Of a DNA stretch of 64,000 nucleotides, positions 1 to 61,573 are shown piece after piece. The notes under the pieces are model-generated. The model did no database searches, was not told the DNA's origin, and saw only the letters and a list, made by a program, of their open reading frames with translations. A program made the position numbers and the translations under genes. The stretch is from Amoebophrya sp. A120 (Eukaryota > Protista > Dinoflagellata): NCBI GenBank assembly GCA_905178155.1, contig CAJINV010000001.1, forward strand, positions 667,643 to 731,642, written 5' to 3'. Numbering within the stretch: the first letter of the stretch is position 1; the number at the start of each line of letters is the position of its first letter.

Positions 1-1979
1 GAGGACGGTGCGGGCGAGGCGGCCAAGGAGCCGGAGGAGCCCCAGGGCACCTACGAGCGATTTTTGCTGCCCGGCTGTCCGGACGTGCTTTTCCTCTTTT
101 CCGCGGACGAGGCGCACCGGAGTTTGGAGTGTGTATGAGAGTTGTGGACAACTACAACTCCCCCTCGTTCACGTTTCCATGATTTTTCATGCGAAATTTC
201 GAGTGTAGCTGCTGCCTTGTGACACTATTGTGCACGACAAATTTCGCAATTTATAATTCCAAGCAGTACTTTGCTCGACGCATGAGGAAAAACTTGTCAT
301 GCACAGGCTCCACCGGTGCTGGTGTTTGTATTGCTGTTCAACATTGCGACATACAAACGAGGGAGGAGGGGAAGTTGTGCACTCGGATAGCCCGAGCTGC
401 TGAGCGAGGAACAGCTCGAGGCGGCGCAGCTCACCGCGAAGCTGGAAACGCGGGAAAGCAGCCTGCTCACCCGAATACAGGAGCAAAAGACGCAGCAAAC
501 GGACGTGATAGACGCGGCCACGGAGGAAAACCCGTTGCCAGAGGACTTTGTGAAGCTCACCAGCGTGCGGGACTTTTTCCAGACGCACAACCGGCTCTGT
601 GAGTGCGATTTGAACGCGTTCTACGAGGAGTTCGCGATTTGGGGCAAGGAGGAGATGGACTTCCGGAACCCGCCAGAGGAGGAGCCGGCGGAGTATCGTG
701 AGGAAAAAACGCACCCGACCCAAATACTCAAAATGGAAGTTATTTGTGATGCTGATTCGTGACCACAAATCACCTCGGTTTTGCATATGGGTCGTCGGAA
801 AGTGTGAGCTTATTTGGCGCATTCCGCCGCCAATCTGTGACGCGCTTCTGCTACATAGCGCAAAGCTGTCTCCCTTTTTGAACTGCTAGTGTTTTGGTTA
901 CCCAGCCAGGGATAGAAAATGCATCATCCGAGCGCTTGCTGCAATACACCGCTTTGTCGTTTACAGAAGCTCAGCATACAGATTTTTTTTTTATGGAGTA
1001 GGGGCAGGTTTTTTCACTTTGACACGGAATCCCCCAACGCCAGTCCGACCGAGGAGGCGGCGCCGGAGCCCACGGAGGAGGAACTGGCGCTGCAGGAGAA
1101 GAAAAGGCTCGAGGCCGAGGCGCGCAAGGAGGACCGCCGCGTCAAGCGGGAGCACATGCTGTCGGTCGTCAAGGGGAACGCATTCGTCAAGTTTTTTCAG
1201 GCCGCATTCGAGAAGTCCACGGGGAAACCGTTCAAAAACTTCCTGCAACCCTTGGACACCACGCGAGTACCCGTGGAGACACCCGTGTCGGAGGGCGAGT
1301 ATAGATTGTTTTCAATTTTTTCCGAGTTCTGTAAAAGTAGAAAAAACACACTGACAAACACAAAGAAACGGCGCTTTGTCTGTTTTTTTTTCCGTCTCTC
1401 CACGACGAGCCATCGAATACGGAAAAGAGATAGAGAACTAGAAAAGTCCCTTCCCCCTTCAACACAGGCTGGTGGGCCTTTCCCTCGAGGAATCCCCTGA
1501 GGAGATTGCGGAACGAGAAGCGGCCGCTCGCGCTGCCGCCCAGAAAGCAGAGGCGGAGAGAAAGTACCAGGACAAGTTGAGGCGAGAAGAAGAAGCACAG
1601 CTGGAGGAAGTGTACTGTTTCATTTTCTATCATCTCTACTTTACGCAGTAGTAAAACGAAACGCACAAAATAAAAGAACTTCTCATCAACTGCGTAAGAA
1701 TAGATTCCCACAATGGTAGAAGTAGAAACCACGTCGGAAGTTGTAGTAGACACTGCATGATCTACTTCCCAGAGACGACGACGATGCTATTTGCTCCTTC
1801 TAAATACAAAAAACAGGTCGGAGCCGCTCCGCAAGTACCTGGCCGAGTACGTGACGCCCCACGTGACAGAAGCGCTGATAGAAATCTGCCGCGTCATGCC
1901 AGAGGACCCGGTGGACTACCTCGCAGAGTACCTCTTTTTCAAGTCCGAGGAGATGAAGGGACCGGATTCCGAGGACTGA
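1..1979 (+). CDS. 3' part of adenylate kinase 7-like protein with C-terminal Dpy-30 motif (exons ~1-132, 391-693, 1030-1298, 1468-1611, 1817-1979)
   Basis: The spliced frame gives a Glu-rich coiled coil followed by [40 protein letters not shown], a Dpy-30 motif as found at the AK7 C-terminus. Two IR-bearing introns and two plain GT-AG introns. The 5' end lies outside the window. Confidence 0.7.
134..389. mobile_element. Degenerate introner-like element forming a GT-AG intron (133-390)
   Basis: Imperfect IR TATGAGAGTTGTGGACAACT..CCCCTCGTT / AACGAGGG..AAGTTGTGCACTCGGATA. Removing 133-390 joins SLEC|PELLSEE in frame. No 5-bp DR. Confidence 0.55.
694..1024. mobile_element. Introner, B-related, degenerate
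   Basis: TATCGTGAGGAAAAAA.../...TTTTTTCACTTTGACA, DR CGGAG/CGGAA, joins EPAE|SPNA. Confidence 0.7.
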
Positions 1980-2868: not shown

Positions 2869-5800
2869 ATGAGACTTCGTGACGGCCGGACCCCGACTCT
2901 TTCCTGCGCATTCCCCCGGTCCTGCTTCCGTGTTCTTCTCGTGGGAGCGCTTCTTCAACTAGGGACGAGCGGATTGACTTTGCGGACGACAGTTGACGGA
3001 ACGAAGCCTGGCAGTACTAGCAGGAATGCAGCAGGAGCTGCTGCTTCCGCTACTACAACTCCTGCTGCGCAGGAGACCACCACCAGTGACCCGAAAATTA
3101 AAGTCCGCCTGTGCGATCCGAGTCGCCCGATTCAGGTCGTGCCGCAGTCTACGCGCTACGAAGTGCGAACGCTGTACTACGAGGCGGACAGATACAGTGA
3201 CCGGACGCGTAGATTGCTCCTGTTCGCAGGTTTAGGTGGCCACCGGTATCTCGAACTCCATGACCTAGAGCAAGAGGCAATTTCTATCGGCGGCGGGAGT
3301 TCGTCGGAGGAGGAGGAAGAGGAAGGGAGCGATGATATTCCAACTGACCAGGATCATCACGACCGACTGCGTAATGAGGAGGATCACAACAATTTCTACG
3401 AGTCGTTTCCTCGACCCGAAGCCCAAGCAGGGTTCTCTGCTTCGCTCCCCGGTGCGGAGCATCTTCGGTCAGACCAACGACCACTTTCGCGCCAAGGAGA
3501 AAACCGAGAAACATCAAATCCCGGGCTTGCTGCTCGTAGAGCTACTAGTAGAGTTGCTGCAGTAAAGACGAAATGCGTTCTCACGCTGGGTTTTTACTAC
3601 GACAGTGAGACGGACGCGTGCAGTTTGCAAGCCCCGGACGGCGTCGTCGCGCCGAAGAGTCGGCTATCCAATGCAAATATGTCTGGGTCCGGAAAGTTGT
3701 AATGCTAAAATGTGCATGCTGAAAACACTTTCTTATGCACGAAAGCATGACAAGTTGGCAGAAGAGAACGCTTTCTCATCTGGTAACCAAATGCGTGCGC
3801 GCGCGCGCGCAGAGCGCGCGCCGGCCCACGAAGCCGGCGCGCGCGCTCTGCGCGCTTGCGATATTGCTTAGCAAACGCAGCGCGAAGGCAGTTGCCGTTA
3901 CCATATAGGGCAACCGCCGGGAGGCGTGAAGGTCAGGGAAATGGCCGGAAATGAAGCGGGAGAAGGGAAAAAAAGCGGACCAGATGTGAAAATGTCCAGG
4001 AGGTCAAAAATGTCGCAAAAACGGCAGAAACCAAGCGGGAGAAGGTGAAAAAACAGCATTTTTGCGGTTTGGCCCACTTGATAGCTGAAAAAGAGACGGA
4101 CTATTTTTTGCTCCGCCCGCTGGCCAGCTGCGTTGGAGAAGCAGGCCCGCGACCTGTTCGGAAGTCTTGGGCCGCTTCGTAACTGAAAAAAGTTTGAAAA
4201 AAATGGCAAAAAATTGCTTCATAACGTGGGTGGAAGCAATCGTCGGATTTTGTCCAGACCACCCGGGCCACTTGAAAAATAGAAAAAGACGAAAAATTGC
4301 CCAAAAGCGTAATCCCTCCGCAGGCTTCAAAACTGCCAGTCAGATGCGGGCGGTGAAAATGTCCAGGTCGCCCGGGCCACTTGGAAAATAGAAAAAGACG
4401 GAAAATTGCGCAAAAGCGTAATCCCTCCGCAGGCTTCAAAACTGCCAGTCAGCTGCGGTCGGTGAAAATGTCCAGGTCGCCCGGGCCACTTGGAAAATAG
4501 AAAAAGACGGAAAATTGCGCAAAAGCGCAATCCCTCCGCAGGCTTCAAAACTGCCAGTCAGCTGCGGTCGGTGAAAATGTCCGGAGCCCTTCGGACACCT
4601 AAAAACCTGAAAAAAAAGCGAAAATCGCAAAAAATCGAAAACCCTCGGCAGGCTTACAAACTGGCCGCCAAGGGCGGTCCGGTGGGCGCGCGCTTGCGCC
4701 ATACCATCGCGATTGGGAAAAAAAAGTCGGACTAGAAGCGGGCGGAGGCATGTCCCAAAGTTCCGATTTGGCCGGGGTTGTGAGCACCAATTCGGGACCT
4801 CCACCGCGTCTGAAGTGGCCGATTTTGGTTGCCCGGAAGGGTTCGCGGGTTTTCGGCTTTCCGCATACCTTCCTGGCCAGGGGGCCAGTTTGTCATGCAG
4901 GGGGCTAGAGAGGATGCCCCGCTGCGAAATAGCAGACCGGATTTCGCTCCACCACTTCCCCGCGGCCCTAAAGGGCCGCGGACAACTACTGTCGCCCGCG
5001 GCGGCCCGCAGGCTCCTGCGATAAGCTTTGAATGCGAATCCGGAAGCCCCCGATGACCCAGATATCTTCCTGGCCAGGGGGCCAGTTTCTCATGCAGGGG
5101 GCTTGAAGAAGAAGGAGTGGGACTGTAATCAAAAATAAATAGCGCCAAAGCGCGGCCCGCGGGGCCGCGCTTTCGCCGCGCGGCTGGTTAGGCTTTCGCG
5201 CTGGTTAGAATTTCGCGCACGCTTTTGGTTACCAATATCGCCCTCCGGGCGCGACCTTCATACGCACTCCTCATGAGAAGCTGCGTTTTTGTATAAAACA
5301 AAAGAGACTACCACTACGACTTTTGTCGGTCATGCAATACAAACAGACTTCACAGGAATCCGTTAGGCGGCCAGCATTACAAGTTCCAACTTTCCAGACC
5401 CAGACAGATTTGCAATGCATATCGGCGATGCCAGCGCACCTTGCACGCGGCCGAGGCGACCTGCCGCCGGGACAAGTGCAACTTGTCGGGAGAGCGCACG
5501 GTTTTTCACGACGGGGCAGTGGACGAGAAGTATCGGTCCCTCTTGTTGCAGCTGCACGCCCGGGAAAAGGCGAGAGCCGCGGACGCGGAACTACCCTCAG
5601 GTGGCTCGACTTGTAGTGGCTCTACTCATGCGCATGCGGGTAGTTGTTCAACATCGTTTACCTCTACTGGTTCAGACTCGACTGCTCCGAGAAGTAAACA
5701 CCCAACAAGTCCGGCATTGCAACTCGGTCCCCGTGCCGCAGTGTTTCTTCCGGCTCTCGGGACTGCAATACCGTCGAACTTTCGGCAGCATACAGCGACT

Positions 5801-10900: not shown

Positions 10901-11114
10901 GCGCTCGCCCTCGTGGAACGCAGGCTTTCTACGGCAGGGGGACGTGCTCGAGTGCCGGATCTACAAGGAGTCCGGGGATCTGGAGCTCTGGGTCAACGGG
11001 GTGCGGCGGGGCGTGTGGCAGGCCAAAATTCGCAAGTCGCCGCATCTCTACCCGGTGGTGGACCTGTTCGAGCACCAGGGGGAGAGGTTGCGGGTGGTAT
11101 TGTTGCAAGAGTGA
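7929..11114 (+). CDS. Intronless protein with an F-box-like motif and a C-terminal Neuralized (NHR)/SPRY-like domain
   Basis: DLWEPILNFAVEW..KLSCVCRKWRKLLNSPVAW (F-box-like); WSDGCRLDIGVT..GDVLECRI..GDLELWVNG..LYPVVDLF (NHR-like). First ATG at 7929. Confidence 0.65.
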   Translation: MDLHEAHVKLEQLDFRGISVLVQNLQRSANLHSSSKVRVAKRLKRCLHLLLNEEPSVRGVLLASSVRESKQENDHTAEQQPEPHVATSSPVKEKPLALAGAESPVVLDHVQLPDSTTNTKHEPEQDETPTSGALLQHFSPPGRAGKGEQNFVAPPGIVKVVDSAPAVDVDLQIPVVPLFSSSTSSSSEGVATTGEHGAVVQINMPPAPAPAFVGVENDEDEDQEPKSVLDVFDLWEPILNFAVEWPRGWGKLSCVCRKWRKLLNSPVAWEGHHVQLAKRDIVGIWPPICHLAAVWASAKSIRLPDRLAAESEDILLRGFERKEVVPLTRVKAARRAARAKRRKLQEKEQQLAAAAMGEASSAVALASTTAGVEDRAPGAAILGTDDHPDPPQQQPSKIMTSVDIMIRTETSASNTAELPGTTTRQTITSGTSAQLQHQHVGPALLPGTSTTSRPTPVQLPPLGHYKDNLTNNESIFQWDSSVYLEDNSRPPSPSNLLLPGGGRRGGQLSHLLLQEDDKDEPLSDESGVTGPRAGDDRQYPNGAPAGAESNLSSSYRDNELVFELHALRQIFEHRLNAQSNPKDQTTSLEKTASRRPRRRSSLYLEGDVMSDAEQMLERDDFASTFGSGLDTSFTKTQLSFPKLQEVFDHVVLDYLCIDASTLAYDTSGLMSLELGNLSGRGSSTVAGGSFLTAGDFLSHNAQQERQRIPSDRPPLTARVLTVHSCEMQAMDDAAGTPQHGSSASRTPAHTNHLQQQAPTTSSTGNILLHVGAPSLNTGEGTPAVSEMKHTEQPEQQTTTFSSLLFQKMMAASEQPDQRARLLLPIELRNQLPLLTGSWYDFKNHEQSVDVPSPRRCTALRTPESSKGFGVLVGAQCLRRRLQAEVRYGTNWAVAGANEAGEEAALASSHSDHQGATTKTRKVKPFQVAFAEFRRFRLFLEHWSDGCRLDIGVTQVAPQEQRTKIRFAEDLLGCWIVEATGLLVGSHPGVRLRSPSWNAGFLRQGDVLECRIYKESGDLELWVNGVRRGVWQAKIRKSPHLYPVVDLFEHQGERLRVVLLQE

Positions 11115-11715: not shown

Positions 11716-14700
11716 ATGGTTTCCTCTTCCCTGAGTGTGACCGGCGGCCCGGCTCCGGTCCGGGGAGCAGCTGGATCCTCGTTTCACTCACCGCAGCAGC
11801 AGATGCAAAAATCCTGGAGCAGCACCAGTGTATTCGACGAGACGCATTTGAGGAGTTCTTCGACCATGGAAGGCCAGCATACAACCAGCCGATTTTCGGC
11901 GGGGTCCACCTTACCAAGCTTAAGCCTGAGTCCGCGAACCACCCGGATCGCCACCTCCTTCCACACCGATTCCACCGGGTTCCGACTGCCCACGCTGTCC
12001 TCGATGGAGCTAACGACCACGACCGGGGGTAAAAGACGACACCAAAGGTCCAGTTCCACCCATTCGCACTGGACCTCGGAAAACTCCGGCTTCATAGCCG
12101 GGCTGCCGCAGTCTCGACACGGCACGAGACCCGGAAAGCGGGGAGGCGCGCAAGGGGGGTCGCCGCAAGAAGCACACCGGTTGGAAATCGCCAGCCTGAA
12201 AAACCAGTTTGAGAAGTATAATTGTGTGGCTGCTATCAGATCTACGTATAGAAGTTTTGCTGTTCTTGTCAACGTAAAAGCATGGCTGCTCTGTTTTATC
12301 CTTTTTTGATCAGACGTTGGATCGTGTTGCACCAGCATCCTCACTGTATACATAGACAAATAAACACGACAGCAACGTGAAATGGATTGCAAACACCACG
12401 GAGCGGTTGCTCGGCCACGACGACCACCAAGACCACCACGGCGGGAGCCCCGACCACAAAGGCGGCGATGCCGGCCACGGCGCGATCTCGAAATCGCAGG
12501 AGTTTCTGAACCTCCGCGGTCAGTTTGGCAGCATGCGGGAGCGGCTGGAGTACTTCCGATTCCATAAGGCGTTGGAACCAAAACTCGCCCCCATGAAGGA
12601 GAACTTTCTCTGCCCCTCGCAGTATTTGAAGGCGAAGGAGAAGTCCCCGCGGAGCAACGCCGTTCTGAAGAACACGAAGCCGGTATTGCAATGAAAAATG
12701 CCCCCACCCCCGAACTTGGGAGAATTTGTATTGCAAACCTTTCCAAATGAAACGTTCGCCGTCTTGCATCTATCAGCATCACAGGTTTCCAATCGTGAAT
12801 AGCAAAACTTTGTATCGCCAGAGACTCCAGCAAGAGCGGCGCTTGTCATGCAAGCGATGCGATACACGCCTAGACTCTGCATCAGAAAGAATCGTACTCC
12901 TTTCATGCATGACAAAAAAATTTCATTTGGAAACTTCGCATCACAAATTTTTGCAATTTTAGGAGTGGGGGTCACTTTTCACTGCAATAGCCGGACGTGA
13001 TTCTCAGCTACAAAAAGGAGAACCGGGTGACGAAATACTTGGAGCAGGGCCAACTGTGGGAGGAAAAAATCAAGGTGCGGACAAAGTGGAAGTTATCCAC
13101 AGTAAAATTCCCGTACACGACGTACAAATGCGGTTTCTGCATGACAAAACTGGGCTTCGTCGATCCTAGTGTAGCATGGCAAGTGTTCTTACACTCCAAA
13201 TTGGTGAATAAATTTGTGATGCATCTTGTACAGACATGTACGGGGAATTTGTATTGCATAGAAGCGGCAGAAGCACCGGCAGTTCCGGCTGGATACCCTG
13301 TACTCGCTGCGGAAAAAGCAAATGCACTACCCGATCCTATCAAATGCAAATATGTCTGGGTTCGGAAACTTGTATTGCTGAGTTGTGAATAGGGAATTAT
13401 CTGTAATGCAAAGTCAAGCATGAGACATATTTGCGCTGCTTAGTGTAAGTGTTGCACTTTCCGCATGACAGGGTCGCTTCTTCTTCTTGGACACGCACCA
13501 CAAACTCTTCAGTTATGCCAAACAAGCATGACAAACCTTGCATCCTTCCAGACTCAGACATATTTGCAGTTGATAGATCCTCGGCAGCACCCACTTGATG
13601 CGCACGTTGGACGTGGACGCATGGGAACTGCAGGGTCTCTCCCCGGACGAGTCCGCGGACGAAATGCTGCGCCGGATCCTGGTTGGGGTGGTGTTGTACA
13701 AATTCACGCAGAATTGCGACGAGATCCTCCAGAACTCGGAGAACGAAACCTTTCTCACGCAGTTCCGGTCCACCATGAAGGAGAAGCGGCGGCAGCGGCT
13801 GCTGGAGGAGGACCCGGACGCGCTCGGGGGGCAGGGACTGCGCTATCAAGATGAAAAATCCCCCCTCGTCCGCAAACGGACATTTGTGTAGCATGATTTG
13901 TTATCACAAATCGCGTTGTCATGCTAGAAGGGAAGTAGAGATGCGGACAACTCTAGAAGTACCTACTGGCAGGGCGGGAAAGCCTTGCGTCTTCAGCATG
14001 ACAGGAAGCTGCAACTACAAGCACGAAGCAGGATAACAAGTTGCCTGAAAACGAGGCGGCATCTGCGTCGCTTGGCCTTCTAGCAATACAAACTACGACT
14101 TGTGTACGCGAGTCCAGCAGCACAAACTTCCTCTTCGATATGGGGAGGGGGGACTTTTCCTCACAATATGCGCCCGCCCGGAGAATCCTCGACAGACGAG
14201 GAGAAGCACAGTGCGGCGGACCTTATCAAATGCAGATATGTAGTCTGGGTCTGGAAACTTGTGATGCAAGGAAGGGAACCTCAGGGAGCGCACTGCAATG
14301 CGCTGCCACGCATGACAAGTTTTTCCTTGGTTCTGAGTTGCGTCCTGCGCATGAGAAACTGCGTTTTTGCATGACAGGCAAGAGGAGCAGCTCATTGCGG
14401 CCGTGCAATACAACAGAGCTGAGCCATGCCAAGCTAGCATGACAAACCTCCCAATCTTCCAGACCCAGACATATTTGCATTTGATAGAGCTGGCGGTGCG
14501 GCAGAAGAACAAGCTGCGGTATCTGCGGTTCAAGATGGCGCTGCGGATCGCCGTATCAAATGTAAAAATGTCTGGGTCTGGAAAAGTGTAGACTTGTCAT
14601 GCAGATTTTCCATGAGCCATGAGGTCTGGAATGCGGGACTTAGCGTGACAGACTCTGCGAGGTCTCTGCCATGCCTACCCTGCATGAGAAACTCCCTTCT

Positions 14701-16031
14701 AAGTTGGTCAAAAGTGTACAGCTCTTGGCACTCATGCAACACAGATTTTTGCATGCTTCAGATTTACCATGACAAGTTGCAATCTTCCAGACCCAGACAT
14801 TTTTGCATTTGATACGCCGTGCGCACCTACCGGCGGATACGGAAGGCCCGGATTCTGTACTCCACCATGCAGACCTTCGCGAGTAAAATGCTGCACTGGA
14901 ACACGATCTTGGCGTTCCAGGGGTTCAACAAGAAAACCCGGTTAATCCAGCGGTTCTGGCGCGACTGCCGGATCGACATCAAAGCCAAACTGAAGCTGTA
15001 CCTGCAAAAGGCGAACAAATTCGAAATGCGGCACCACCGTCGCGTGTTCATCGACCGGCACGGCGGCGCGGTCAGTCCCCCCAGTCAGGCGCAGCTGCGG
15101 GCACTGTTGATTCCGGAAAAGGACCGATTTTTGTTTATCACCATGGAACTGCGGGCGAGAAGGTAGTGAAAAGAAATCAAGTAGCTTGTTGTTTTCAGCA
15201 AACAAGTTCCCTGTCGATGTTGTATTTATTAACCCTGTCATCCGGGATGACAATGTTCAATTTCTATGATCAATCTTCACAGTATGGGATGATCCCATAC
15301 TGTGAAGATTGATCATCGAAAATTGATTGCTCCCAACATGGTTTCACTGTCCTGCCCCTGGGGGTTTATTGCTTGTTTAGACTGGTGGCTGTTTTGCCAT
15401 CGCAAGCAAAGGGGAAAAAGCGACCGCGCTGGCCATCTTACACACAGCTAGGTGAAGAGACAACAAGAATCAGTCTAGTACTAACTTACTCGCACGACCG
15501 AAATGTAATCAAACTATCGCTGGACCACATCATTACAAGTTCAACAGGTACCTGTCCCTGACCGGTCTGGCGGAGTACCGTCGCGATTGGCGTGACTACG
15601 AGGAGCAGGTGGAGAAGTGGCGGCAAGCGCGGTACGCCGCGAAGCTGATGGGCAGCGAGGTCGGGGCGATGCCGTTTCCACCACCGTATCCGATCTCCTA
15701 TCCGACGGAGAAGGAAATGCCAGACGTGGTGGAGCGGTACATGAACATTTTTATGCACCGCGCGCTGAAGCGGCTCGGCGACTTTACCGAGGAGGAGAAG
15801 CCGCAGCTGTTTCTCCGCTACACGAAGGAACTCGCGGAGCGCAAGCCCGAGATGCTCGCGGATGACGATGCGGGGGACGGGGTTGACGGCGTGAATGAAG
15901 TTTCGCTGGAAACGCTGTTTCTCGTGCGTCTCCGGCTGGACGAAGCACCCGTGATTCCGGACTTGCCCGTCGCGCCGAATCAGGAGGTCAAGAAGGTGAA
16001 ATACATGACACGCGGGACGGAAGCCTGGTAA
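11716..16031 (+). CDS. Hypothetical basic protein, 9 exons (11716-12215, 12373-12683, 12995-13093, 13266-13337, 13581-13843, 14174-14223, 14492-14553, 14820-15162, 15548-16031)
   Basis: One continuous frame after removing 6 introners and 2 GT-AG introns (12216-12372, 15163-15547). Confidence 0.75.
12684..12989. mobile_element. Introner, B2 subfamily
   Basis: TATTGCAATGAAAAATGCCCCCAC / GTGGGGGTCACTTTTCACTGCAATA, DR GCCGG, close sibling of 38491-38798. Confidence 0.9.
13094..13260. mobile_element. Introner family F
   Basis: TATCCACAGTAAAATTCCCGTACA / TGTACGGGGAATTTGTATTGCATA, DR GAAGT/GAAGC. Confidence 0.85.
13338..13575. mobile_element. Introner family A
   Basis: TATCAAATGCAAATATGTCTGGG TIR, DR GATCC, joins YPI|LGST. 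Confidence 0.9.
13844..14168. mobile_element. Introner family B
   Basis: TATCAAGATGAAAAATCCCCCCTC / GAGGGGGGACTTTTCCTCACAATA, DR TGCGC. Confidence 0.88.
14224..14486. mobile_element. Introner family A
   Basis: Family A TIRs, DR GACCT/GAGCT. Confidence 0.9.
14554..14814. mobile_element. Introner family A
   Basis: Family A TIRs, DR CGCCG, reverse-complement sibling of 59890-60151. Confidence 0.92.
15266..15316. repeat. Perfect 25-bp inverted repeat with 1-nt spacer, inside a canonical intron
   Basis: ATGATCAATCTTCACAGTATGGGAT-G-ATCCCATACTGTGAAGATTGATCAT. Confidence 0.95.
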
Positions 16032-21800: not shown

Positions 21801-22036
21801 AAACTTCAACTGTCATCAACTTGCTCGGCACTCGAAATCCATATTATATATTCATTTTCATTTGTGTAGTACCCTGTCGATTTCAAATTTGATTGTGATT
21901 TCCCCTATGATCTAAGGAAATAATTTTTGACCTTCCATTTTGATTTGTTTTTTCTTTCATTTTCAGAATTGTTATTGTAGTGAGTGCCGCGAGTTGGTCG
22001 GGCACAAATATCGAAGACCGACGACAACAGACGATT

Positions 22037-22301
22037 TATCCTGTGTAATAGAAATGTCCCCACCGCAGAGGAAAGAGAGGGTCTGTGAACTCCGCATGAC
22101 AAATCCGCGTGCTTAGTTTCGTTGTGCCTGACTGTAGAAGCCGCACCACAAGTCGATCATCAATCTCATGTAGCATTAAAAATCCGATGAAAACACCATG
22201 TGAAAGATGTTCCTCATGGGGCTGCGCATGAGAGACATCCTCACCATGTAAGTAACTACGCATGACAGCTCTGAGACGTGGGGACGTTTTTACACAGGAT
22301 A
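22037..22301. mobile_element. Introner, B3 subfamily, outside any evident CDS
   Basis: TATCCTGTGTAATAGAAATGTCCCCAC / GTGGGGACGTTTTTACACAGGATA, DR CGATT/CGACT. Confidence 0.85.
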
Positions 22302-47938: not shown

Positions 47939-50900
47939 ATGGGTGGGACGCAAAGTGTAGTGGCACCTGGTACAACGACGGGGATCACGAGCGGCAGTAC
48001 GGCGGGAGACCAGCCGTCAATGCGTTTCGAGAATTTTCTTATGTACTACAACCCCCTGCATTACATCATCAGTTCTTCCTCCCTGTTCAATTCCGATCCA
48101 TCGTCATCTCGTGGAGGCCAACTGGATCTGCCAAGTGCTGGCACCGCTGGGACATTAGAAAACCATCTATTGCAACAGCAGAACGACAAGAACTTAATGG
48201 CCAGTACTGGCGCTACCCCGGCGGCGGCTCTGGGAGTGGTCTCTGCGGATCAAGATGCGATTCCAGGAAAAATAGACGACCCTGCAGCTGCGGTCCTCGC
48301 AGTGGCAGCAGCCGCATCGCAACCTTCCTGGATCCCCAGTTATTTGATCTGGACGCAGATTCTTGGCGTGGTGATCTACGTGCTTTTTGTCACTTTCAAA
48401 CTCGGGTTTCCCCGGGAGTACGTGGTAATCCAAACGCAGGAAGTGAAACGCGAGACCAAGCGGTGGCCGGTGTGTCTCGGGCACGCGTTGGTCTTCTACC
48501 TGCTGCGCCCGGTGTGCTGCTATCAACTGTAAAAATGTCTGGGTCTGGAAGATTCTGAGACTTGTCATGCACGTGTTGCATGAGCCATGATGTCTGTGAT
48601 GCATGCCCTAGCAGCACAGATTTTTTGAGGGCCTCTTGATGCCTCTTCGGCATGACAAATGCCCTCTCCGCGTAGCAGAACTTGCGTTCCCTTTGCTGCT
48701 CATGCAACACAGATTTTTTTGGAATCCCAATGCAGCATCACAAGCTGCATTCTTCCAGACCCAGACATTTTTCCATTTGATAGCTGCTTCTTTGGCAAGC
48801 CCGGGATTGCCTTGTACGAAAGGTTTCTGCGGTCCTTCACCGTGCGCCATAACAGCTGGGACGTTCCCTATGAAACGGAAAGGATCGATCTTCTTCTACA
48901 AGGGCAAATGAGAAATGCATGTTGTGCATGTTGTAGCTTTGATTCCAATAATTCGTACAACACGTTCCTGGAAGTAGGATAGTAGCTGGACACAAGATCA
49001 AGCGGGCAGCGCATCTATCGTTGTCCTCTTGGAGGATGATCAAGGTCTACATAAAAACAGCATTCGAAATTTTCTTGTTTGCTCTCAAGTGGGTTATTTT
49101 GCGAGTTGTATACGCTCTACAAAAGCAAGCGGGCCGCGCAGCGACAGGTTTTGCTATGGTGCCGATTTTGGGGGGTGCAGGTATGAAGAATTTTTTAACG
49201 TTCTCTCGATGAAAAGCTTGCAGCTTGCAAGTACGTTTTTTTCTCTTGGTATTACCTACGTGACTTAGTCAGTACACGATTACCTACGTGACTTAGTCAG
49301 TACACGTTTCGTTCTTGAACCGAAACCTTAACCTTTGTTGCCAGCGGGAGATGATAACGGGATAAGTGGAAGAAAAACTACCCACAAGAACGTAAGAACC
49401 CACAACCAAACAGACGGAGCCCTGGGTGTGGGACCGGCAGCCTTCGGACTACGTGTCCAAAAACGACTTTTTTACCCGCACCTATGCGAAGAAATACCTG
49501 CCCCAGATGGGCCGCGCGCAAATCGTCAGTCCGGTGGATGGCGTCTGCACGTGGTTCCGGTCCACGATTGACATGCCGAAGCAGCTGAAAAACGACGCGT
49601 TTTGGGATTTGGCGTCCATCGGTATTCCCAACAGCGAACGCTACGAACGCAACCCCGCCTGCATGCTGTATCTGGCGCCAAACGATTACCATTGGTATCT
49701 ATGAATGTAGTCTCAAGTACTGAGAAAAGATTTGAGTGCAAAGAACCGTAGACTGCTTGGAATCGATGCTTGTTCTAGGCGAAGTTTTACGATGATGTTT
49801 TTTTATGAAGGAATTGATTTCTACTTTAGGGCACCACCAGAAAAGCGAAAAAGTAAGTAACGATAAAAGTTCAATAAATCAACAAAAGTTTCCACGCCCC
49901 GGTGACCGGCAAAGTGATTCACTGCACGATGTTCCCGGACTTCTGGAGCGGCACCGTAAAAAGCGACATCTGGGGCTCCGTCAACATCCTCGCCCAACAT
50001 CGGCGCGTGGTCGTTGTGTTTGAAGTGAAAGCGCCCACCAGCGACCGGAAGATGAAAAGATCCACCACTTCCTCGTCCGCCACCTCGCTCCGCGCGACCC
50101 AAAGTTACCGGAGTGTCGCCTCCAGCTGGTTGCCCGAGAAACAAGGTCGTGGGGACAAAGAACAAATAGAAATGACGGAAAGTCGAAACTCTGCAACTGA
50201 GCAAGAACTACCGCAGGACCAGGAAAACGACCGAGCACGAACCCAAATCGACGAGGAGGAGGCACTCACCTCCGGATCCAGTAGTGCTATCGACAGCGAG
50301 ATGAGCAGCGGGAACTTCACCGCGCTATCTACGCCACAGCCCGACGTAGAAGTACTCGATCACATGTCCTCTTCGCCGGACGATGGTGGTCCCGGGTTGC
50401 TGTCCTCTCCGGTGGAGTATGCACTGCAAAAATGTCTGGGTCTGGAAACTTGTAATGCTGAATTGTGAGTAGTGAATTCTCTCTAATGCACAGCCAAGCA
50501 TAAGAAATATTCGCGCGGCTTAGTGTTGCGCTTTCCGCATGCCAAACTGTGCTGTGCATGACAAGCAAAACGGTAAGGGTTTCTTCTTGGACACGCATCA
50601 CAAACTCTTTAGTCATGCCAGACAAGCATGACGAACCTCGCATCCTTCCAGACCCAGACATATTTGCATTTGATATTGAGGAGGAAAATGGTTCTTCTTT
50701 GTCCGGTTCGCCTGCGCGTTCCAGCACTTCTGCTGGCCCCGGTGTTGAGCAAGAGGACTCGGTGCACCGAAGGCGACTGGGTGCGACAAGCAGCTCGTCT
50801 TTTACACCCACTAGAACGGCGGGTTCCAGTGATGGAACTAAAAATGCTTCCCCTGGCACTGCTGAAACAAATCCTTCCCGAAGAAAAGAAGCAGCAGCAG

Positions 50901-51953
50901 CGTCGTCAGGCTTCTCTACTACGACTCCGGTCACCCCTGGCAATGCAAACGTAGTTTCGAATGAAGAGGACAAGAACAATCTTGCATCGCTGCCAGCGTT
51001 ATTTCCTGCCCGTACCAGCAGCGCAGCATCATTCCAGTCCACCGATTCGGGGATCTCTTCGACCACACGACAGCAGCAGCAGAACCAACAAGTGCCGCGG
51101 AAGAAGTACGTGGCGATGGTGATTGTCGGCGGGATTACCGTGGATAGCATCAGGATGGACATCCACTGCGACATTGACAAGAGTTCGCGGACCAAGGAAA
51201 AGCAGCAGCAATTCGAGGCAGACGACGATTGGCTGGATTGCAACGCGCCATTGCATACGGAAATCGCAAAAGTATCGCTCTCGCATGAAAAATTGCATCA
51301 CAAATGCTTTGTTCAGGTTGAAAAAATGAATTTGTAATGCTAATTTAGTAAGTACCTCATCCTCAGTACGAGAGAGATTTGTCATGCAGTACTGCAATTT
51401 TTACGACTATCGGAGCGCGAAGATACTTTTGCCCTGGACATTGCACCACCCGAACTCCACCGCAGTTTTGGACGACAGCACGACCGAGTCCTCCTCGCAG
51501 GAGGAGGACGACCACGACGGGAGTTCCAAAAATAGCGGCGAGAATGTCGAATCCAGTCTAAACAACCGGCTGAGAAGCGGTAAACCAGCGTTGACGCAGC
51601 TCCCTGCAGCAGCCAGCACGGCGTCGACGGCAAGCATGTTGAGTGAAGAGGACGTGGAACTACAAGAAGATCGAAATGTGGACGAGGTCGAAAACAGCCA
51701 GACGTCGGGGAAGAATTTGTCTGGCGGGCAGGCCGGTAGTTCTAGCAACTCCTCAAAGACCTCCACGAGCAAAAGACAGTACGTGCGGAAGGGCGACAAG
51801 ATCGGGTGTTTCGCGCGCGGTGGCAGTCTGGTTGCCATGTTTTTCTCGCACAGTGTGCGCCTCGACCCGGCTGTCACGCAGACACGGGAAAAATTCGGGC
51901 CTATGGACTTCAAACTGCACTTCGGGGAAAGTCTAGGGAGCATGCTGTTTTAG
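47939..51953 (+). CDS. Phosphatidylserine decarboxylase-like proenzyme
   Basis: NDFFTR, IVSPVDG, YLAPNDYHW, VAMVIVGGITVDSI and VRKGDKIGCFARGGSLVAMFF (G-S autocleavage motif). 3 introners and 2 other introns; the donor of the intron ending at 49413 is uncertain. Confidence 0.88.
48521..48782. mobile_element. Introner family A
   Basis: Family A TIRs, DR GCTGC, sibling of 27483-27744. Confidence 0.92.
49251..49306. repeat. Perfect 28-bp tandem duplication in an intron
   Basis: ATTACCTACGTGACTTAGTCAGTACACG x2. Confidence 0.95.
50418..50675. mobile_element. Introner family A
   Basis: Family A TIRs, DR TGGAG/TTGAG, sibling of 13338-13575. Confidence 0.9.
51256..51440. mobile_element. Introner family D (diverged)
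   Basis: GCAAAAGTATC / GATACTTTTGC, DR TTGCA, joins APL|HHPN. Confidence 0.8.
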
Positions 51954-52770: not shown

Positions 52771-55359
52771 ATGTCCTGTGTACCCAGGCGGGGGCCGCAC
52801 GCCGCGGCACGGCTGCTGTGTGCCACCTACCTGACCCAGGCATTGCTGGGCCCTTCCAGTCTGGTGGTTCGCGGGATCAAGCCCGTGACGCTGGTGGAGA
52901 AGACAAAAACTACGACAAAATTGGCGAAGGAAGAGATTGAGCCGGTTACCCTGGTGCACAAGAAAACGACGAAATTGGAGTCTTCGGCCGAGGGAAAAGC
53001 GGAGAAACGGAAAGCAGAGGAAAATAAAGCGGAGATCAAAAAAAAGGCCACGAAAGAGAAAAAGGCGGAAGAGGGCGCAGACGCTGAGGAGAAAGCCGAG
53101 GAGAAACTCGAGGAGAAAGCCGAAGAAAAAGCCGAGGCTGAGGAGGGCAACGAGGCATCGGCGGAGGAAGAGGTCTATCAAATGCAAAAATGTCTGGGTC
53201 TGGGAGGTTGCGAGATTTGTCATGCTTGTCTGGCATGACTCTGAGCCCTGTGTTGCAAAAACGCAGTTTCTCACGCGTAGTACGCAACTCAGAACCATGG
53301 AAAAAACTTGTCATGCTTGGCAGCGCACTATAGTGAGTTCACTATTCCCTCTCTTGCATCACAAGTTTCCAGACCCAGACATTTTTGCAATTCATAAGGT
53401 CGAGGAAAAAGCGGACGCCGAGGAGGGCAATGAGGCCTCGGCGGAAGAGGACGCCGAGTCGGAGAACCAAGCCTGGCGGGTCGCGGCGAAACAAGAGCGG
53501 GTGGACAAGGTGAAAGCAAGATATGCATTGTCGGACCGTGTCGTACTAGTAGATTTTCAACAAATGATCGCACTTTTCATTTTGTTCAAACTTGTTGAAA
53601 TAATTATCAGAATGAATGGACTTCGTCAACACGGTGGTTCACAACGAGGAAGCAAGAAGCGCATGATCTGTCATGCATGATCAACCCGTTTAATACTATA
53701 ACGAGTACGACGCTTTTGCAGTGGATCTATGACGCATGATGAGCAAAGAAGCGATCGAGGAGCGAAGCAGGAAGACCAAGGCGCAGTTCAAGTCGAGCCG
53801 GCACTTCTGCTACTGGACGGAAGACACGTACTTCAAGGAGGAAGACGCCGCGGGGAAGCACCAGCGGCGGGGCACCTTGGAGGAGCTGACGACGAAGGCT
53901 GCCTTATCAAATGCAACTGTGTCTGGGTCTGGAAGACTGCGCGTTTCGTGGGACGGCAGGTTTCTTCGCATGACCGAGGAGGTTTGGAATGCGGGCTCTT
54001 GCATCACAATCTTTTAGAGGGCTCGTCGATGCCTATCTTGCATGAGAAGCGTTGTCTTGATCGGATGATCAAAGACAAAATTGAGGAGCGCTTTTGCTGG
54101 TCATGCAACACAGATTTTTCTTGTCGACGAGACCTAGCATCACAAACTCGGTTTCTTCCAGACCCGCACATATTTGCCTTTGATATGCGTACGAGCTGTA
54201 CAAGGAGGTGCCGACCGTGACGGCGGACGACCTGGCGGCGCTGGTGACCAAGAAAAAGGCCGCCGTGGTGGTGTTTTTCGCAACCTGGTGCCCCTTCTGC
54301 ACGAAGGTGGTGGAAGAAGGCCAGGACGACGACACCCCGGCGCCGTACTCCGAATTTTGGGGCGAGGTGCACGACGACGACCTGTTGAAGGACAAGCTGG
54401 AAGTAGTGAAGTACGACGCTTCGATATCCAAGAAAAAAAGGTTGTTAGTGTAAATTTGTGATGCGCAACATGCAAATTGATTGCGCCTGTCGTGCTGGGC
54501 ATGCATTGTAGGGTCCATTCAACGGCGTTTTCCCGTACTATCTGCGCATGACAGGTTTTTCCTGTCATGCGAGAGATATTTGTGATGCTAATCCTCCAAG
54601 AAAGTTACACCCACAATCTTTTTTTTCTGGATATTCGAACACCGAGGACTTGGAAAAGGTGCCGAAGGAGTTCGGGCAGATCAAGTTTTTTCCAAACGTG
54701 AAGGGCCTCACGGCGGACGGCAAGCTGAAAGAGTTTGACAACGACCCGCGCTCTATCCAAGAGAAATATGATACATAATGTCGGGGTCTGGATAGAAATG
54801 ATTTGACATCGTCTGTCGTGCAGTTCTTGCAAGTACATGTAAGTAGGACAGGAGGCCTGGAGTGCATGCGGAGCATGACAAATTCTGCGGAGCAGTGGCT
54901 TCACCTGTCTATAGTCGGCATGGATGAGGAACAATGCGAATGCCCTCTCTAGCAGACAAAAGTCGCAAGGTTCTTTTGCGGAGCTATGCAACACAGTTTT
55001 TTACCTGTTCCCCGCATAGTAACAGGTTTACATCACAGTTTTGCATCCTGTACTTCCAGACATCCGGGGATGAAGATATTTCTCATGCATACGCTCCTCG
55101 GACGAACTCTTCGAGTTCGGCAAGGCAGTGGCGGGCGAGGCCCAGGGCCCGAGCATGAAGTATGCTGTGCAAAAGTATCGTACTCGTATAAATGCATTAC
55201 AAATTTCCTCAGCATGAGAGCTGGACTTTGTCATGCTGTTTTACCTTAAGGACAAGACTTGTCATGCATAAACGCAATTAGTACGAGTGCGATACTTGTG
55301 CTGAGGATATGAAGGTCACCTTGACAATGACGGGCCGGAAAATGACGGGCAAAAAGTAA
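52771..55359 (+). CDS. Thioredoxin/PDI-like protein with signal-peptide-like segment and Glu/Lys-rich N-terminal region
   Basis: AAVVVFFATWCPFCTKVVE (CxxC), QIKFFPNVKG (cis-Pro loop-like). 5 introners and 1 other intron; stop at 55357-55359. Confidence 0.82.
53176..53396. mobile_element. Introner family A (inverted relative to 14224/34297)
   Basis: Family A TIRs, DR AGGTC. Confidence 0.92.
53905..54185. mobile_element. Introner family A
   Basis: Family A TIRs, DR TGCCT/TGCGT. Confidence 0.9.
54425..54633. mobile_element. Introner family G
   Basis: TATCCAAGAAAAAAAG / CTTTTTTTTCTGGATA, DR TTCGA. Confidence 0.88.
54754..55091. mobile_element. Introner, A-related diverged
   Basis: TATCCAAGAGAAATAT..GTCTGGA / TCCAGAC..ATATTTCTCATGCATA, DR CGCTC. 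Confidence 0.85.
55161..55309. mobile_element. Introner family D
   Basis: GCAAAAGTATCGTACTCGTA / TACGAGTGCGATACTTGTGC, DR TGAAG, sibling of 17103-17256. Confidence 0.88.
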
Positions 55360-58926: not shown

Positions 58927-61573
58927 ATGTCGCTGCTCCGCCGGTTCGCCGACGGCACTTCAGATTTTGGCACTTCCGTCCCATCAGCATCTGCCACAAC
59001 TAAAGCTTCCTCCTTATTGGATAGAGGAGTGGAAGCGTGGGCCGCCGCTTTTGCTCACGGACATGACGGACGAGTTGACGCGCAAGGTCAAGGTGCGAAA
59101 GCTGCCCTAAGTTTGCTGCACCTGGACGGCCACGCGGGGCTGAGCGAAGAGGGCGCGACCCGGGTGCTCCTTGGCACGGCGCTGACCTGTTCCGTACTCG
59201 CCGCCGTCGTGACGCAACGGCAGCTGGTGAAAAGTACCGTTTCGTCCTGTCTTTTCGGAAAGAGTCCCGTTCCTGGGGAGGGAGGTGAAGAAGAGGAAAA
59301 TGACCAACTCAAGAAATCGACCGCACCGACGGGGACAGTCTTAATGAATCAAACGACTGTGACATCACCTCCTGTCGATGTTGTTGACACCAGTACTAGC
59401 AAAAGCGCGCGCGAGAAAGAGACCACCGCGGTGTGCGCGTTGAAGTGGCGCTACGTGGTCGCGTTTTGGCTGGCGACCGGGGCCGACTGGCTACAGGGCC
59501 CGTACGTGTATGCGCTGTATGACGCGTATGGGCTGACGCACTACCAGAACTCCGTCCTGTTCATTTTCGGATTTGGCAGCTCCATGCTGTTTGGCGCACT
59601 GTTCGGCGGGTGGGCGGACCAGAGTGGGAGACGAATATCCAGGAAAAAAAGTGTGTAAGTGTAACTTTCTTTGAGAAACAGAATCACAAATTTGCTCTAC
59701 ATGACAGAGAAAACCTGTCATGCGTGGCTTGAAAGGGAAAACACAGTTAAAAAGAGGACTTCGTGGCTGTCTGGCATGACAGGTGTAACTTTGTTGCATG
59801 TTCTACAACACAAATTTACACTTAGCTTACACAGTTTTTTTCTTGCATAACGAAAATTCGCCCTGTACTACTGCCTCCTCTACGGCCTCTATCAAATGCA
59901 AAAGTGTCTGGGTCTGGAAGATTGCAACTTGTCATGCTAAATCTGCAGCATGCAAAAATCTGTGTTGCATGATTACCAAAAGTCGGCCAGTTTTGACCAA
60001 GTCGGGAGAGAGTTTCTCATGCAGGATGGGCATTAGAAAGGTCTCGCAGAATCTGTCATGCTAGGTCCTGCATTCAAGACCTCAGGGGTCATGGAAAAGC
60101 AGCATGACAAATCGCGCACTCTTCCAGACCCAGACATTCTTGCATTTGATAGCCTCGGCTGCGCGACCAAGCACTTCGCGAACTTCTACGTGCTGGCGCT
60201 GGGGCGGGTGCTCGCCGGCATCGCGACCAGTCTGTTGTACTCCGTATTTGAGTGCTGGCTCGTGTGCGAGGTCTATTCGGAAAAAGCGATCCGCAACAAG
60301 GACGACGCGCTCGCGGACGTCTTCAGCCTCGCGATCTTCGGCAACTCTATCGTCGCGATTCTGATGGGCTTCTTGGCGGAGTCCGCCGCCAATTTGTTCC
60401 CTCTCGTGAAACTCGCGGACTTTCCGTCCGTGGATTTGTACGCGGGCCACTACTGCATGCCGTTCGACCTGTCGGCGTTTTTTCTGCTGGTCACGGCGGC
60501 TTTCTTGTCGCTGTGTTGGACGGAAAACTACGGGTCTGGAAAGGAGCAACGGGTTCTGTCCGAGGAGGAAAAAACACTTCCGAACGAGAAAACCGCATTG
60601 CTGGCCAAGGCGCAGCGCCAGAGCGGAGAGAACAAGGACCACAGTAGTGACTATACCGTTTCGTCCGGCGATTCGGACGCGCCCACGAAAGCCGACACGT
60701 CCGACACCGGCAGTAACAGCAGCGGGGCAGGAGCTCGTCCTGCAAGTATCAATAACACAGCGATTGAATTCCGCGAGCAAGAGGAGGCGGACCACGAAAA
60801 GCAAATAGCGCATCCAGGCGGACCCTCCTCCTCCTCCGCCGCGGATCATGGCAGTGCTGGGGCGCTGCTGGAGGCGTTCGAGGTCTTGTGTACGAACCGG
60901 AAAGTGCAGTGCACGATGCTGCTGTGCAGTTTCTTCGAGTCCAGCATGTTCATCTTCGTGTTTCTGTGGACGCCGGCGGTGATGGCCTTGCACCCGAACG
61001 AGAAGACGCACCCCTTCGGCCTGATTTTCGCCCTGTTCATGACGGGCTGCATGCTGGGCTCCTGCGTGTTCCAGATTCTGCGCAACGACTGCAAGTTTTC
61101 GGTCTTGCAAATCGCAGGCGGACTCTTCGCGGGGTCCGCAGTCATGCACTTCCTCGCGGCCGGTCTGGTCACGGAGTTTGTGCACCTGACGGCGAGCTTT
61201 GTGGTCTTCGAAATCTGCGTCGGGGCGTACTGGCCGATGATGAGCATTCTGAAGGGTCGCGTGGTCCCCGAGCCCCACCGGGTATGCATTGGAAATATGT
61301 TTCTGGGTCCCGTCTTCTGGAAAATCTGTGATGCGAGATCTGTGATGTCATACAAGATTCAGCAGGGCAAGTCGCGTGATTTTATCCAGACTCAGGCATA
61401 TTTGCATTTGATACCGCGCGGCGCTGTACAACTTCTTCCGCGTGCCGCTGAACTTCATCGTTTGCGGGATTTTGCTGCTCGACGTCTCCGTGACTACCGG
61501 CTTCTTGTTCACCAGCGGACTCCTGGTCTCCAATCTGTTCCTTCTTTTACGCAAAGTGAAAAAATGTGTGTAA
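58927..61573 (+). CDS. MFSD5/MOT2-family MFS transporter (molybdate-anion transporter-like; exons 58927-59635, 59855-59889, 60157-61282, 61419-61573)
   Basis: ADWLQGPYVYALY, GRVLAGIATSLLYSVFECWLV, FESSMFIFVFLWTP, VPEPHR|AALYNFFRVPLN; the family motifs are restored by removing 3 introners. Confidence 0.92.
59636..59849. mobile_element. Introner family G (inverted relative to 54425)
   Basis: TATCCAGGAAAAAAAGTGTGTAAG / CTTACACAGTTTTTTTCTTGCATA, DR ACGAA, joins GRR|KFAL. Confidence 0.9.
59890..60151. mobile_element. Introner family A (inverted relative to 14554)
   Basis: Family A TIRs, DR GCCTC, joins YGL|GCATKHF. Confidence 0.92.
61283..61413. mobile_element. Short introner, family A
   Basis: 131 bp, family A TIRs, DR CCGGG/CCGCG. 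Confidence 0.88.

What the first reader, a model, noticed from the sequence alone, without database searches (positions are those of the whole stretch)
133..61418. Transposon-like introns defined by inverted repeats and a 5-bp duplication rather than GT-AG
Seen: 37 elements in at least 7 TIR families, nearly all TA(T)...ATA, and 36 with a 5-bp DR (28 perfect). Removing element plus one DR restores recognisable proteins (MFSD5, PSD, TSP1, thioredoxin). Many element lengths are not multiples of 3 and the bodies contain stops, so functional genes need precise removal. Most junctions offer no GT-AG pair at a frame-preserving offset. Established: IR/DR non-canonical introner elements are reported in Amoebophrya dinoflagellates, and to my knowledge their removal machinery and transposase are not identified. 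Inference: a MITE-like system with a fixed 5-bp target duplication, coupled to a non-standard RNA (or possibly DNA) excision pathway.
Basis: partly seen in the sequence, partly recalled or inferred. Interest (0 to 1): 0.9.

Follow-up and report, generated by a model that had tools for sequence, protein, structure and literature searches.

The report
Transposon introns cut at fixed offsets
Genes of the marine parasite Amoebophrya A120 are interrupted by dozens of already described transposon-like introns, and RNA contigs show each one missing together with exactly five flanking bases, likely cut one base before and four bases after the inverted repeat regardless of GT-AG signals, which would give this unexplained splicing system a simple, testable rule.

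Summary
Observation confirmed. The window holds 39 TAT...ATA inverted-repeat elements; 28 of 39 have a perfect 5-bp duplication. It is Amoebophrya sp. A120, so these are the introner elements of Farhat et al. 2021, and the system is already known.

RNA contigs support removal of the element plus exactly 5 nt at 21 elements (7 listed joints, 14 from contig coordinates). DNA-like contigs keep the elements. In-frame GT...AG options at 134 and 12684 are not used.

What I did not find in print: the five RNA-covered elements whose duplications have drifted apart fit only one cut register. The intron starts 1 nt before TAT and ends 4 nt after ATA. Farhat called the border variable and unknown. All families share an internal motif phased at 31-33 nt, and a second assembly shows the fixed 5-bp duplication (291 of 393).

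The machinery is untested. A modified spliceosome reading N-U-A at the 5' end is slightly favoured over a Euglena-like stem-guided route. Earlier scan notes report similar introns in other dinoflagellates and protists.

The parts
134..389 (+). Element, flanks GTGTG/GCCCG (2/5); in-frame G|TAT..ATA|G option present but unused
   Evidence: Joint 132->394, skip 261 = 256+5, in 4 of 4 RNA runs
694..1024 (+). Element TAT..ACA, DR CGGAG/CGGAA
   Evidence: Joint 688->1025, right copy kept at position 5
3665..5421 (+). Long element, DR TCGGC, with a nested GC-rich insert of about 1.45 kb
   Evidence: Sequence only; no joint listed
12684..12989 (+). Element, DR GCCGG; GT..AG option unused
   Evidence: Joint 12677->12989, skip 311 = 306+5
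13094..13260 (+). Element, DR GAAGT/GAAGC
   Evidence: Joint 13088->13261, right copy kept at position 5
13338..13575 (+). Element, DR GATCC
   Evidence: Joint 13332->13576
13844..14168 (+). Element, DR TGCGC
   Evidence: Joint 13838->14169
14224..14486 (+). Element, DR GACCT/GAGCT
   Evidence: Joint 14221->14490 derived from contig coordinates; left copy kept at position 3
14554..14814 (+). Element, DR CGCCG
   Evidence: Contig coordinates
17103..17256 (+). Element TAG..ATA, DR GACAT
   Evidence: Sequence only
17583..18740 (+). Element spanning the N gap 17858-18412, DR GCTGA
   Evidence: Sequence only
19949..20148 (+). Element, DR ACAAG/CAAAG (3/5)
   Evidence: Sequence only
22037..22301 (.). 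Element, DR CGATT/CGACT; no open frame across the junction, probably not in coding sequence
   Evidence: Sequence only
24741..25034 (+). Element, DR CCGCA
   Evidence: Joint 24735->25035 in X1 (depth 146), absent in DNA-like X5
27242..27418 (+). Element in TSP1 gene, DR GAGTA
   Evidence: X1 contig length 159 nt fits element+5
27483..27744 (+). Element in TSP1 gene, DR GTCCG; GT..AG option does not fit the contig length
28643..28813 (+). Element, DR CTCTG, opposite orientation to 27242
   Evidence: X1 contig length 814 nt
28868..29054 (+). Element, DR TGTGC
   Evidence: X1 contig length; intact in X5 contig 28786-32613
32507..32755 (+). Element, DR GTCCT/GTCTC; fixes the cut after duplication base 4
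   Evidence: Piece starts at 32760; 839-nt accounting gives 32505->32760
34297..34555 (+). Element, DR AATAG
   Evidence: X1 contig length 1786 nt, summed over seven elements
34909..35230 (+). Element, DR CATCG
   Evidence: summed
35299..35535 (+). Element, DR GTGCA
   Evidence: summed
35833..36153 (+). Element, DR GTCGA
   Evidence: summed
37354..37674 (+). Element, DR GGACT
   Evidence: summed
38159..38409 (+). Element, DR CGTGC, opposite orientation to 27483
   Evidence: summed
38491..38798 (+). Element, DR TACTG
   Evidence: summed
40732..41028 (+). Element TAT..ATT, DR GGTTT
   Evidence: Sequence only
48521..48782 (+). Element, DR GCTGC
   Evidence: Sequence only
50418..50675 (+). Element in phosphatidylserine decarboxylase gene, DR TGGAG/TTGAG
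   Evidence: Sequence only
51256..51440 (+). Element TAC..ACA, DR TTGCA
   Evidence: Sequence only
53176..53396 (+). Element, DR AGGTC (an exact GT-AG placement exists)
   Evidence: Sequence only
53905..54185 (+). Element in thioredoxin-like gene, DR TGCCT/TGCGT
   Evidence: Sequence only; removing four elements opens one frame
54425..54633 (+). Element, DR TTCGA
   Evidence: Sequence only
54754..55091 (+). Element, DR CGCTC
   Evidence: Sequence only
55161..55309 (+). Element, DR TGAAG
   Evidence: Sequence only
59636..59849 (+). Element in MFSD5 gene, DR ACGAA
   Evidence: Removing element+5 at four sites reproduces annotated protein P0104 exactly
59890..60151 (+). Element in MFSD5 gene, DR GCCTC
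61283..61413 (+). Element in MFSD5 gene, DR CCGGG/CCGCG
61548..61744 (+).
   Evidence: P0104 is matched only with the cut after base 3, 4 or 5

Best explanation
These are Amoebophrya A120 introner elements: short inverted-repeat insertions with a 5-bp duplication that are missing, with exactly five flanking bases, from spliced RNA contigs, likely cut from the pre-mRNA one base before TAT and four bases after ATA, probably by a modified spliceosome. Step 1 (shown): TAT-N7-AAA termini, fixed 5-bp duplication, repeated families, both orientations in genes. Step 2 (inferred): one integrase-type (Ginger/Copia-related) transposase acting in trans mobilises all families and would bind the shared TGT[ACG][AT]TGC motif that recurs three helical turns apart. 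Step 3 (shown at 21 loci): the element plus 5 nt is removed at the RNA level, which restores the pre-insertion coding length. Step 4 (shown at five loci, inferred for the rest): the intron is N-TAT...ATA-NNNN. Step 5 (inferred): the 5' site is read as N-U-A, in register with this genome's GTA donors but with position +1 relaxed. The 3' site is set without AG, at a fixed distance from the inverted repeat, which is predicted to fold the two ends together.
For: Seven listed RNA joints all skip length+5; 14 more fit contig coordinates. Allowed registers at imperfect duplications: {4,5}, {0-4}, {0-4}, {3-5}, {4}. Only 4 fits all five (about 0.02 if registers were random). GT..AG options at 134 and 12684 are ignored. 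All 17 canonical introns used here start GTA (one row there was mis-set and is corrected from the 1611->1817 joint), and register 4 is the only one that puts T and A at +2/+3. All nine predominant A120 non-canonical pairs in Farhat Table S4 start with NT (aligner bias possible). In 280 oriented elements of a second assembly, terminal changes spare the 5' TA and the first A of the 3' ATA (p = 0.03; 0.002 with the window; post hoc). The spliceosome is largely intact except U1 (Farhat section 10), and the tunicate Fritillaria shows that a spliceosome can adapt to such introns. Folding: median z -6.2, 34 of 37 below -2, against median -0.8 and 4 of 17 for canonical introns. Motif: 125 copies in 11.5 kb inside against 8 in 52 kb outside; 44 of 174 pairs at 30-33 nt against 7 expected; 294 of 879 against 35 in the second assembly.
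Against: No lariat, branch point, inhibitor or protein evidence exists, so the machinery is unshown. There is no excess of GT (82 of 288) or AG (19 of 288) at the register-4 ends, so no drift toward canonical signals. There is no G-U over A-C excess in the stems of the second assembly (only window positions 17-25 show one, 24 against 9), so selection on an RNA stem is not demonstrated. The terminal 3 bp are often predicted unpaired. The register rests on five loci, all in plus-strand genes, from contigs of one study. The lower bound rests on two loci, one of them derived by length accounting. No transposase was found.
Confidence: 0.52

Rival explanations
1. Same elements and same 1/4 register, but removed by a separate, stem-guided route (an endonuclease plus ligase, or a Euglena-like machinery) that measures from the paired TAT/ATA ends and ignores splice dinucleotides.
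For: Neither GT nor AG is needed or enriched; GT-AG options are ignored; strong end-to-end hairpins in both orientations; the Euglena code has the same stem-plus-spacer logic, 3 nt before and 5 nt after paired triplets (PMC12501133), and those introns leave as circles (PMC11282704); U1 snRNA was not detected in A120.
Against: The cut lands exactly in the register of canonical GTA donors; the terminal conservation differs between the 5' and 3' ends; no wobble signature of stem selection; no enzyme identified.
Confidence: 0.35
2. Removal is precise in length but the cut position within the duplication varies, as Farhat et al. state; the five loci agree by chance or because each locus fixed its own cut.
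For: Only five informative loci; contigs show the majority form only; Farhat Fig. 3 and S23 legends describe variable positions at 1-5 nt.
Against: One register satisfies all five loci plus the annotated protein; perfect duplications make aligner placement slide, which alone would produce the reported variability.
Confidence: 0.1
3. The elements are excised from DNA in a life stage, like ciliate internal eliminated sequences, and the RNA copies the rearranged DNA.
For: Transposon anatomy and a helically phased motif that looks like a DNA-binding site; only one DNA-like run was laid, and 293 joints were not shown.
Against: X5 contigs run through element junctions and keep the whole 28868-29054 element; X5 depth at the 24735->25035 joint is 0. 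A low-depth contig in an RNA run keeps the left junction of element 134 (depth 3 against 51 for the spliced form), though this could be DNA carry-over.
Confidence: 0.03

Closest known systems
Introner elements among the non-canonical introns of Amoebophrya sp. A120 (Farhat et al. 2021, PMC7789003)
   Same: Same strain; IR starts TAT + 7 variable + AAA; DR at the boundaries; hairpin; repeated families; RNA-supported non-GT-AG junctions; no internal transposase.
   Different: The paper gives DRs of 3-5 nt, variable splice positions and an unknown border, and argues against general transposase-mediated spread. Here the duplication is always 5 nt, five loci fit a single 1/4 register, GT-AG options are ignored, and all families share a phased internal motif.
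A120 introner family 38 (Gozashti et al. 2025, PMC12130899, dataset row)
   Same: TIR element with 5-bp TSD and TA/TA termini in the same genome.
   Different: About 810 bp with Copia-related ORFs; the elements here are 131-338 nt with no such ORF. I could not compare the sequences.
Euglena non-conventional introns, code N3-CDG / CH'G-N5-6 | R (PMC12501133)
   Same: Paired triplets near both ends with fixed unpaired spacers, no GT-AG, slidable direct repeats, coexistence with canonical introns.
   Different: Triplets TAT/ATA with 1- and 4-nt spacers; no clear purine rule at the next exon start (169 of 288); unrelated lineage; excision product unknown here.
Fritillaria borealis MITE-derived non-canonical introns (PMC13326754; review PMC11282704)
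   Same: TIR/TSD transposon origin, mass loss of GT-AG.
   Different: There the ends are mostly AG-AC or AG-AT and the spliceosome is implicated through divergent U2AF and snRNA methylation; here the terminal dinucleotides are NT and any two bases.
Micromonas/Aureococcus and Symbiodinium introners (PMC11282704; 10.1101/2020.10.14.339549)
   Same: MITE-like introns with TSD and TIR.
   Different: Those carry or co-opt GT/GC/GA and AG; here a G|TAT..ATA|G site is available at three loci and does not match the RNA at any of them.
GingerRoot DNA transposons (PMC6839031)
   Same: TA...TA termini, TIRs, no target sequence preference.
   Different: 6-bp TSD rather than 5; they encode an integrase-related transposase, none found here.

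Membership tests
Amoebophrya A120 introner elements (Farhat 2021) | Located in genes of strain A120 | tested here: met
   Window exon is 100% identical to P0104, named Amoebophrya sp. A120
Amoebophrya A120 introner elements (Farhat 2021) | Inverted repeat starting TAT, seven variable bases, then at least three A | tested here: met
   Position counts in 39 elements: T39 A39 T36, then A35 at positions 11-13; paper section 11
Amoebophrya A120 introner elements (Farhat 2021) | 3-5 nt direct repeat at the exon/intron boundary | tested here: met
   28 of 39 exact 5-mers, none of 3 or 4
Amoebophrya A120 introner elements (Farhat 2021) | Repeated families; removal from RNA at non-GT-AG ends | tested here: met
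Amoebophrya A120 introner elements (Farhat 2021) | Predicted hairpin joining the ends | tested here: met
   34 of 37 with z below -2; prediction only
Canonical spliceosomal introners (Micromonas/Aureococcus type) | GT/GC donor and AG acceptor carried or co-opted from the TSD | tested here: not met
   25 of 39 have no in-frame option; options at 134 and 12684 unused
Spliceosomal introns generally | Lariat with branch adenosine; snRNP dependence | not testable with these tools
   Only contigs of RNA runs covered these genes
Euglena non-conventional introns | N3-CDG / CH'G-N5-6 signature with purine at next exon start | tested here: not met
   Signature here is N1-TAT / ATA-N4; purine 169 of 288
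Euglena non-conventional introns | Excision as full-length circles | not testable with these tools
   No raw reads covered the elements' host exons
GingerRoot / Ginger-like transposons | TA...TA termini with TIRs | tested here: met
   paper passages
GingerRoot / Ginger-like transposons | 6-bp TSD (GingerRoot) | tested here: not met
   5 bp in 291 of 393; exact 6 bp in 1
GingerRoot / Ginger-like transposons | Integrase-related DDE transposase in a full-length copy | tested here: inconclusive
   None in 64 kb plus 634 kb of loci by ORF listing, recalled-motif scan and one Pfam scan; whole genome not held

The most novel reading that the evidence does not exclude
Amoebophrya A120 runs a second, non-spliceosomal splicing code, N1-TAT...ATA-N4, in which a dedicated machinery measures from the paired ends of a transposon, overrides GT-AG signals and restores the pre-insertion sequence exactly. 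This would be convergent with Euglena's code, and one integrase-type transposase recognising a helically phased motif would have spread all the families.
Probability: 0.3. Interest if true: 0.85.

Novelty: already known. Interest (0 to 1): 0.5.

Why it matters
The element class is published, but how tens of thousands of such introns are removed is an open question, and the paper left the intron border undefined. A fixed 1/4 register would give the true intron ends. It allows re-annotation of the A120 genome and tells an experimenter where to look for lariats, circles or cyclic-phosphate ends. It also explains why these insertions are neutral in either orientation and at any target: the pre-insertion coding length is restored exactly. 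The shared, helically phased motif offers a bait for the missing transposase.

Tried and rejected
No run holding the stretch is on record as RNA. X1-X4 are guessed RNA, and their contigs skip canonical GT-AG introns. Raw-read runs X8 and X9 laid only 10 and 241 partial reads and none on junctions: uninformative. No TIR match in viral contigs; no P0104 relative there. No Rfam match in the window. Long copies in the second assembly (9 over 500 nt; 7 inspected) look like composites or mis-pairings without a transposase ORF. A scan of 3034 ORFs with recalled integrase motifs found nothing; this is a weak test. The 216-aa ORF in the nested insert has no Pfam hit. A requirement for an intact duplication is rejected (134: 2 of 5). 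Duplication mismatches by position in the second assembly (15, 18, 8, 6, 14) and their direction gave no usable pattern. The G-U versus A-C test was negative in the larger set. A YUNAY branch-site reading of TTGATA was considered, but the base two before the A is T in only 17 of 39. No exon of the window overlaps the second assembly's loci, so no empty-site comparison could be made. No earlier scan note exists on this genome or sequence.
Full report
Observation. Scans for inverted repeats and family termini gave 39 elements from 134 to 61744 (two coordinates were off by one and corrected). All start TA (36 TAT) and 36 end ATA. The five bases on each side match perfectly in 28 of 39, at 4/5 in 7, 3/5 in 2 and 2/5 in 2; no other duplication length from 3 to 9 occurs. 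Three shuffles gave 0, 0 and 4 TAT-starting pairs against 30 in the window. An alignment of six copies shows homology ending exactly at TAT and ATA. Same-family copies lie in both orientations in plus-strand genes, for example 27242 and 28643, or 27483 and 38159. Element+5 shifts the frame for 25 of 38, and 25 of 39 have no in-frame GT/GC...AG pair nearby. Host genes include Dpy-30, TSP1 and MFS_5 proteins, a phosphatidylserine decarboxylase and a weakly scored thioredoxin.

Organism. The MFSD5 exon is 100% identical to P0104, labelled Amoebophrya sp. A120 (the first search, excluded that length). Removing element+5 at four sites reproduces all 686 residues of P0104. That protein is a published gene model, so it is not independent of the RNA behind it.

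Removal from RNA. Contigs of runs X1-X4 (guessed RNA, one study, two samples) skip canonical GT-AG introns and the elements. Seven listed joints all skip length+5: 132->394 and 688->1025 in four of four runs; 12677->12989, 13088->13261, 13332->13576 and 13838->14169 in X4; 24735->25035 in X1. Both joint tables were cut (8 and 293 rows not shown). Contig coordinates fit +5 removal at 14 more elements: 14224 and 14554, 27242, 27483 and 32507, 28643 and 28868 (after choosing the GT that gave an open frame), and seven between 34004 and 40059. In that last gap the unexplained remainder was 1139 nt, exactly the period of an exon duplication there. Offsetting +3/-3 changes cannot be excluded in summed gaps. 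The DNA-like run X5 keeps the junctions, the whole 28868 element and the canonical introns, and has no depth at the 24735 joint. Fourteen elements have sequence evidence only.

Register. With a perfect duplication the cut can slide; with an imperfect one the RNA shows which copy is kept. The allowed numbers of left-copy bases retained are {4,5} at 134, {0-4} at 694 and 13094, {3-5} at 14224 and {4} at 32507. P0104 needs 3-5 at 61548. Only 4 fits all. The intron therefore begins one base before TAT and ends four bases after ATA. I formed this rule from 32507 (note) before laying the other four loci. Element 134 keeps only 2 of 5 duplication matches and offers an in-frame GTAT...ATAG intron, yet all four runs skip 261 nt, not 258. 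At 12684 the skip is 311, not 308. So neither an intact duplication nor GT-AG decides the cut. Limits: five loci, all in plus-strand genes, majority forms only.

Second assembly. A TIR pattern matched metagenome contigs (145 loci, 634 kb, a sample of about 390 stretches) holding the same families at up to 95% identity. With ends defined without the terminal three bases, 393 elements were found: 291 exact 5-bp duplications, 58 at 4/5, 14 at 3/5 and 30 lower (seeds came from the window and from perfect copies). 288 of 393 could be oriented by a codon model. Those with under 3/5 matches, over 700 nt or no clear strand were dropped. On the window the model called 31 of 39 correctly and 8 not at all, with training overlap. 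At register 4, 82 of 288 start GT and 19 end AG, which is no excess. Six families occur in both orientations. Among 280 with at least 4/5, terminal changes were 2 and 8 at 5' positions 1-2 and 3, against 9 and 3 at the 3' end (p = 0.03; 0.002 with the window, whose detection favoured TA starts; post hoc). G-U did not exceed A-C mismatches in the stems, which is a result against selection on an RNA stem.

Shared anatomy. The elements fold into end-to-end hairpins (median z -6.2; 34 of 37 below -2; the two long ones were left out), and canonical introns mostly do not (median -0.8). A motif TGT[ACG][AT]TGC occurs 125 times in 11.5 kb of elements and 8 times in 52 kb outside. Same-strand copies lie 30-33 nt apart in 44 of 174 pairs (7 expected; 10 of 20 representative elements) and 294 of 879 in the second assembly (35 expected; 343 of 344 elements carry the motif). 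Copies within a family are not independent. Three helical turns suggests a DNA-binding protein common to all families; this is inference.

Mechanism. Shown: transposon anatomy, RNA-level removal of element+5, and one register at five loci. Inferred: the machinery. All 17 canonical introns used here start GTA (one row corrected), and register 4 alone places T and A at +2 and +3. The nine predominant A120 non-canonical pairs of Farhat Table S4 all start NT, though aligner preference may contribute. I give a modified spliceosome 0.52, a separate stem-guided route 0.35, variable cuts 0.10 and DNA excision 0.03.

What is known. Farhat et al. 2021 (PMC7789003; I saw the abstract, passages, sections 10-12 and 16, supplement legends and table rows, not the figures) describe these elements in this strain. 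They call the splice sites variable and the border unknown, report U1 as undetected, and argue against general transposase-mediated spread. Gozashti et al. 2025 (PMC12130899; passages, A120 rows 1-41 of 58 plus a term search; supplement files 13-14 not searched) list family 38 as Ginger-like with 5-bp TSD and TA/TA termini. The Euglena code (PMC12501133, parts 1 and 3 of 6) is the closest logical analogue. Tunicate work (PMC13326754, abstract and a term search; review PMC11282704, part 2 of 5 and passages) shows spliceosomal adaptation. I saw passages only of 10.1101/2020.10.14.339549, PMC12005148, PMC6839031 and PMC11453091. Searches turned up no paper giving a fixed register for A120; subscription papers and the figures could still hold it.

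Verdict. The added value is the fixed 1/4 register, the override of GT-AG, and the phased motif, which make the open question of mechanism easier to test. Interest 0.5.

Noticed in passing
window 36159-37297: A 1.1-kb insert with a 39-nt tandem array and its own inverted repeat sits between two copies of a 41-nt piece of TSP1 exon. The RNA contig length requires exactly this 1139-nt unit to be skipped; a GT-AG placement (36172-37310) exists inside the duplication, so it may be an ordinary intron created by the duplication.
   Followed up: partly
window 3781-5240: GC-rich insert with 109-nt tandem repeats and a TGGTAACCAAA-type inverted repeat nested inside element 3665-5421; RNA-run contigs about 95% alike point to other copies. 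No Pfam hit for its 216-aa ORF; no match in fetched loci.
   Followed up: partly
window 17583-18740: Element 95% identical to 34909 over 275 nt that spans the assembly gap 17858-18412 and carries extra sequence after it.
   Followed up: no
window 26480-42080: Two tandem genes made of many TSP1 repeats, each ending in a hydrophobic stretch, joined in one RNA contig; they hold 13 of the 39 elements.
   Followed up: partly
window 1-64000: All genes examined lie on the plus strand; several long exons (5422-7357, 7930-11111, 22760-24736, 56404-57849) have no element, while other genes have four to seven.
   Followed up: no
window 27483-27514, run X8: A 2026 raw-read RNA run that does not cover these exons still holds reads with this family's terminus and other flanks, so unspliced or untranslated-region copies occur in that run.
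   Followed up: no
L001-L145: One metagenome assembly holds hundreds of elements of the same families; whether it is the same strain was not determined.
   Followed up: partly
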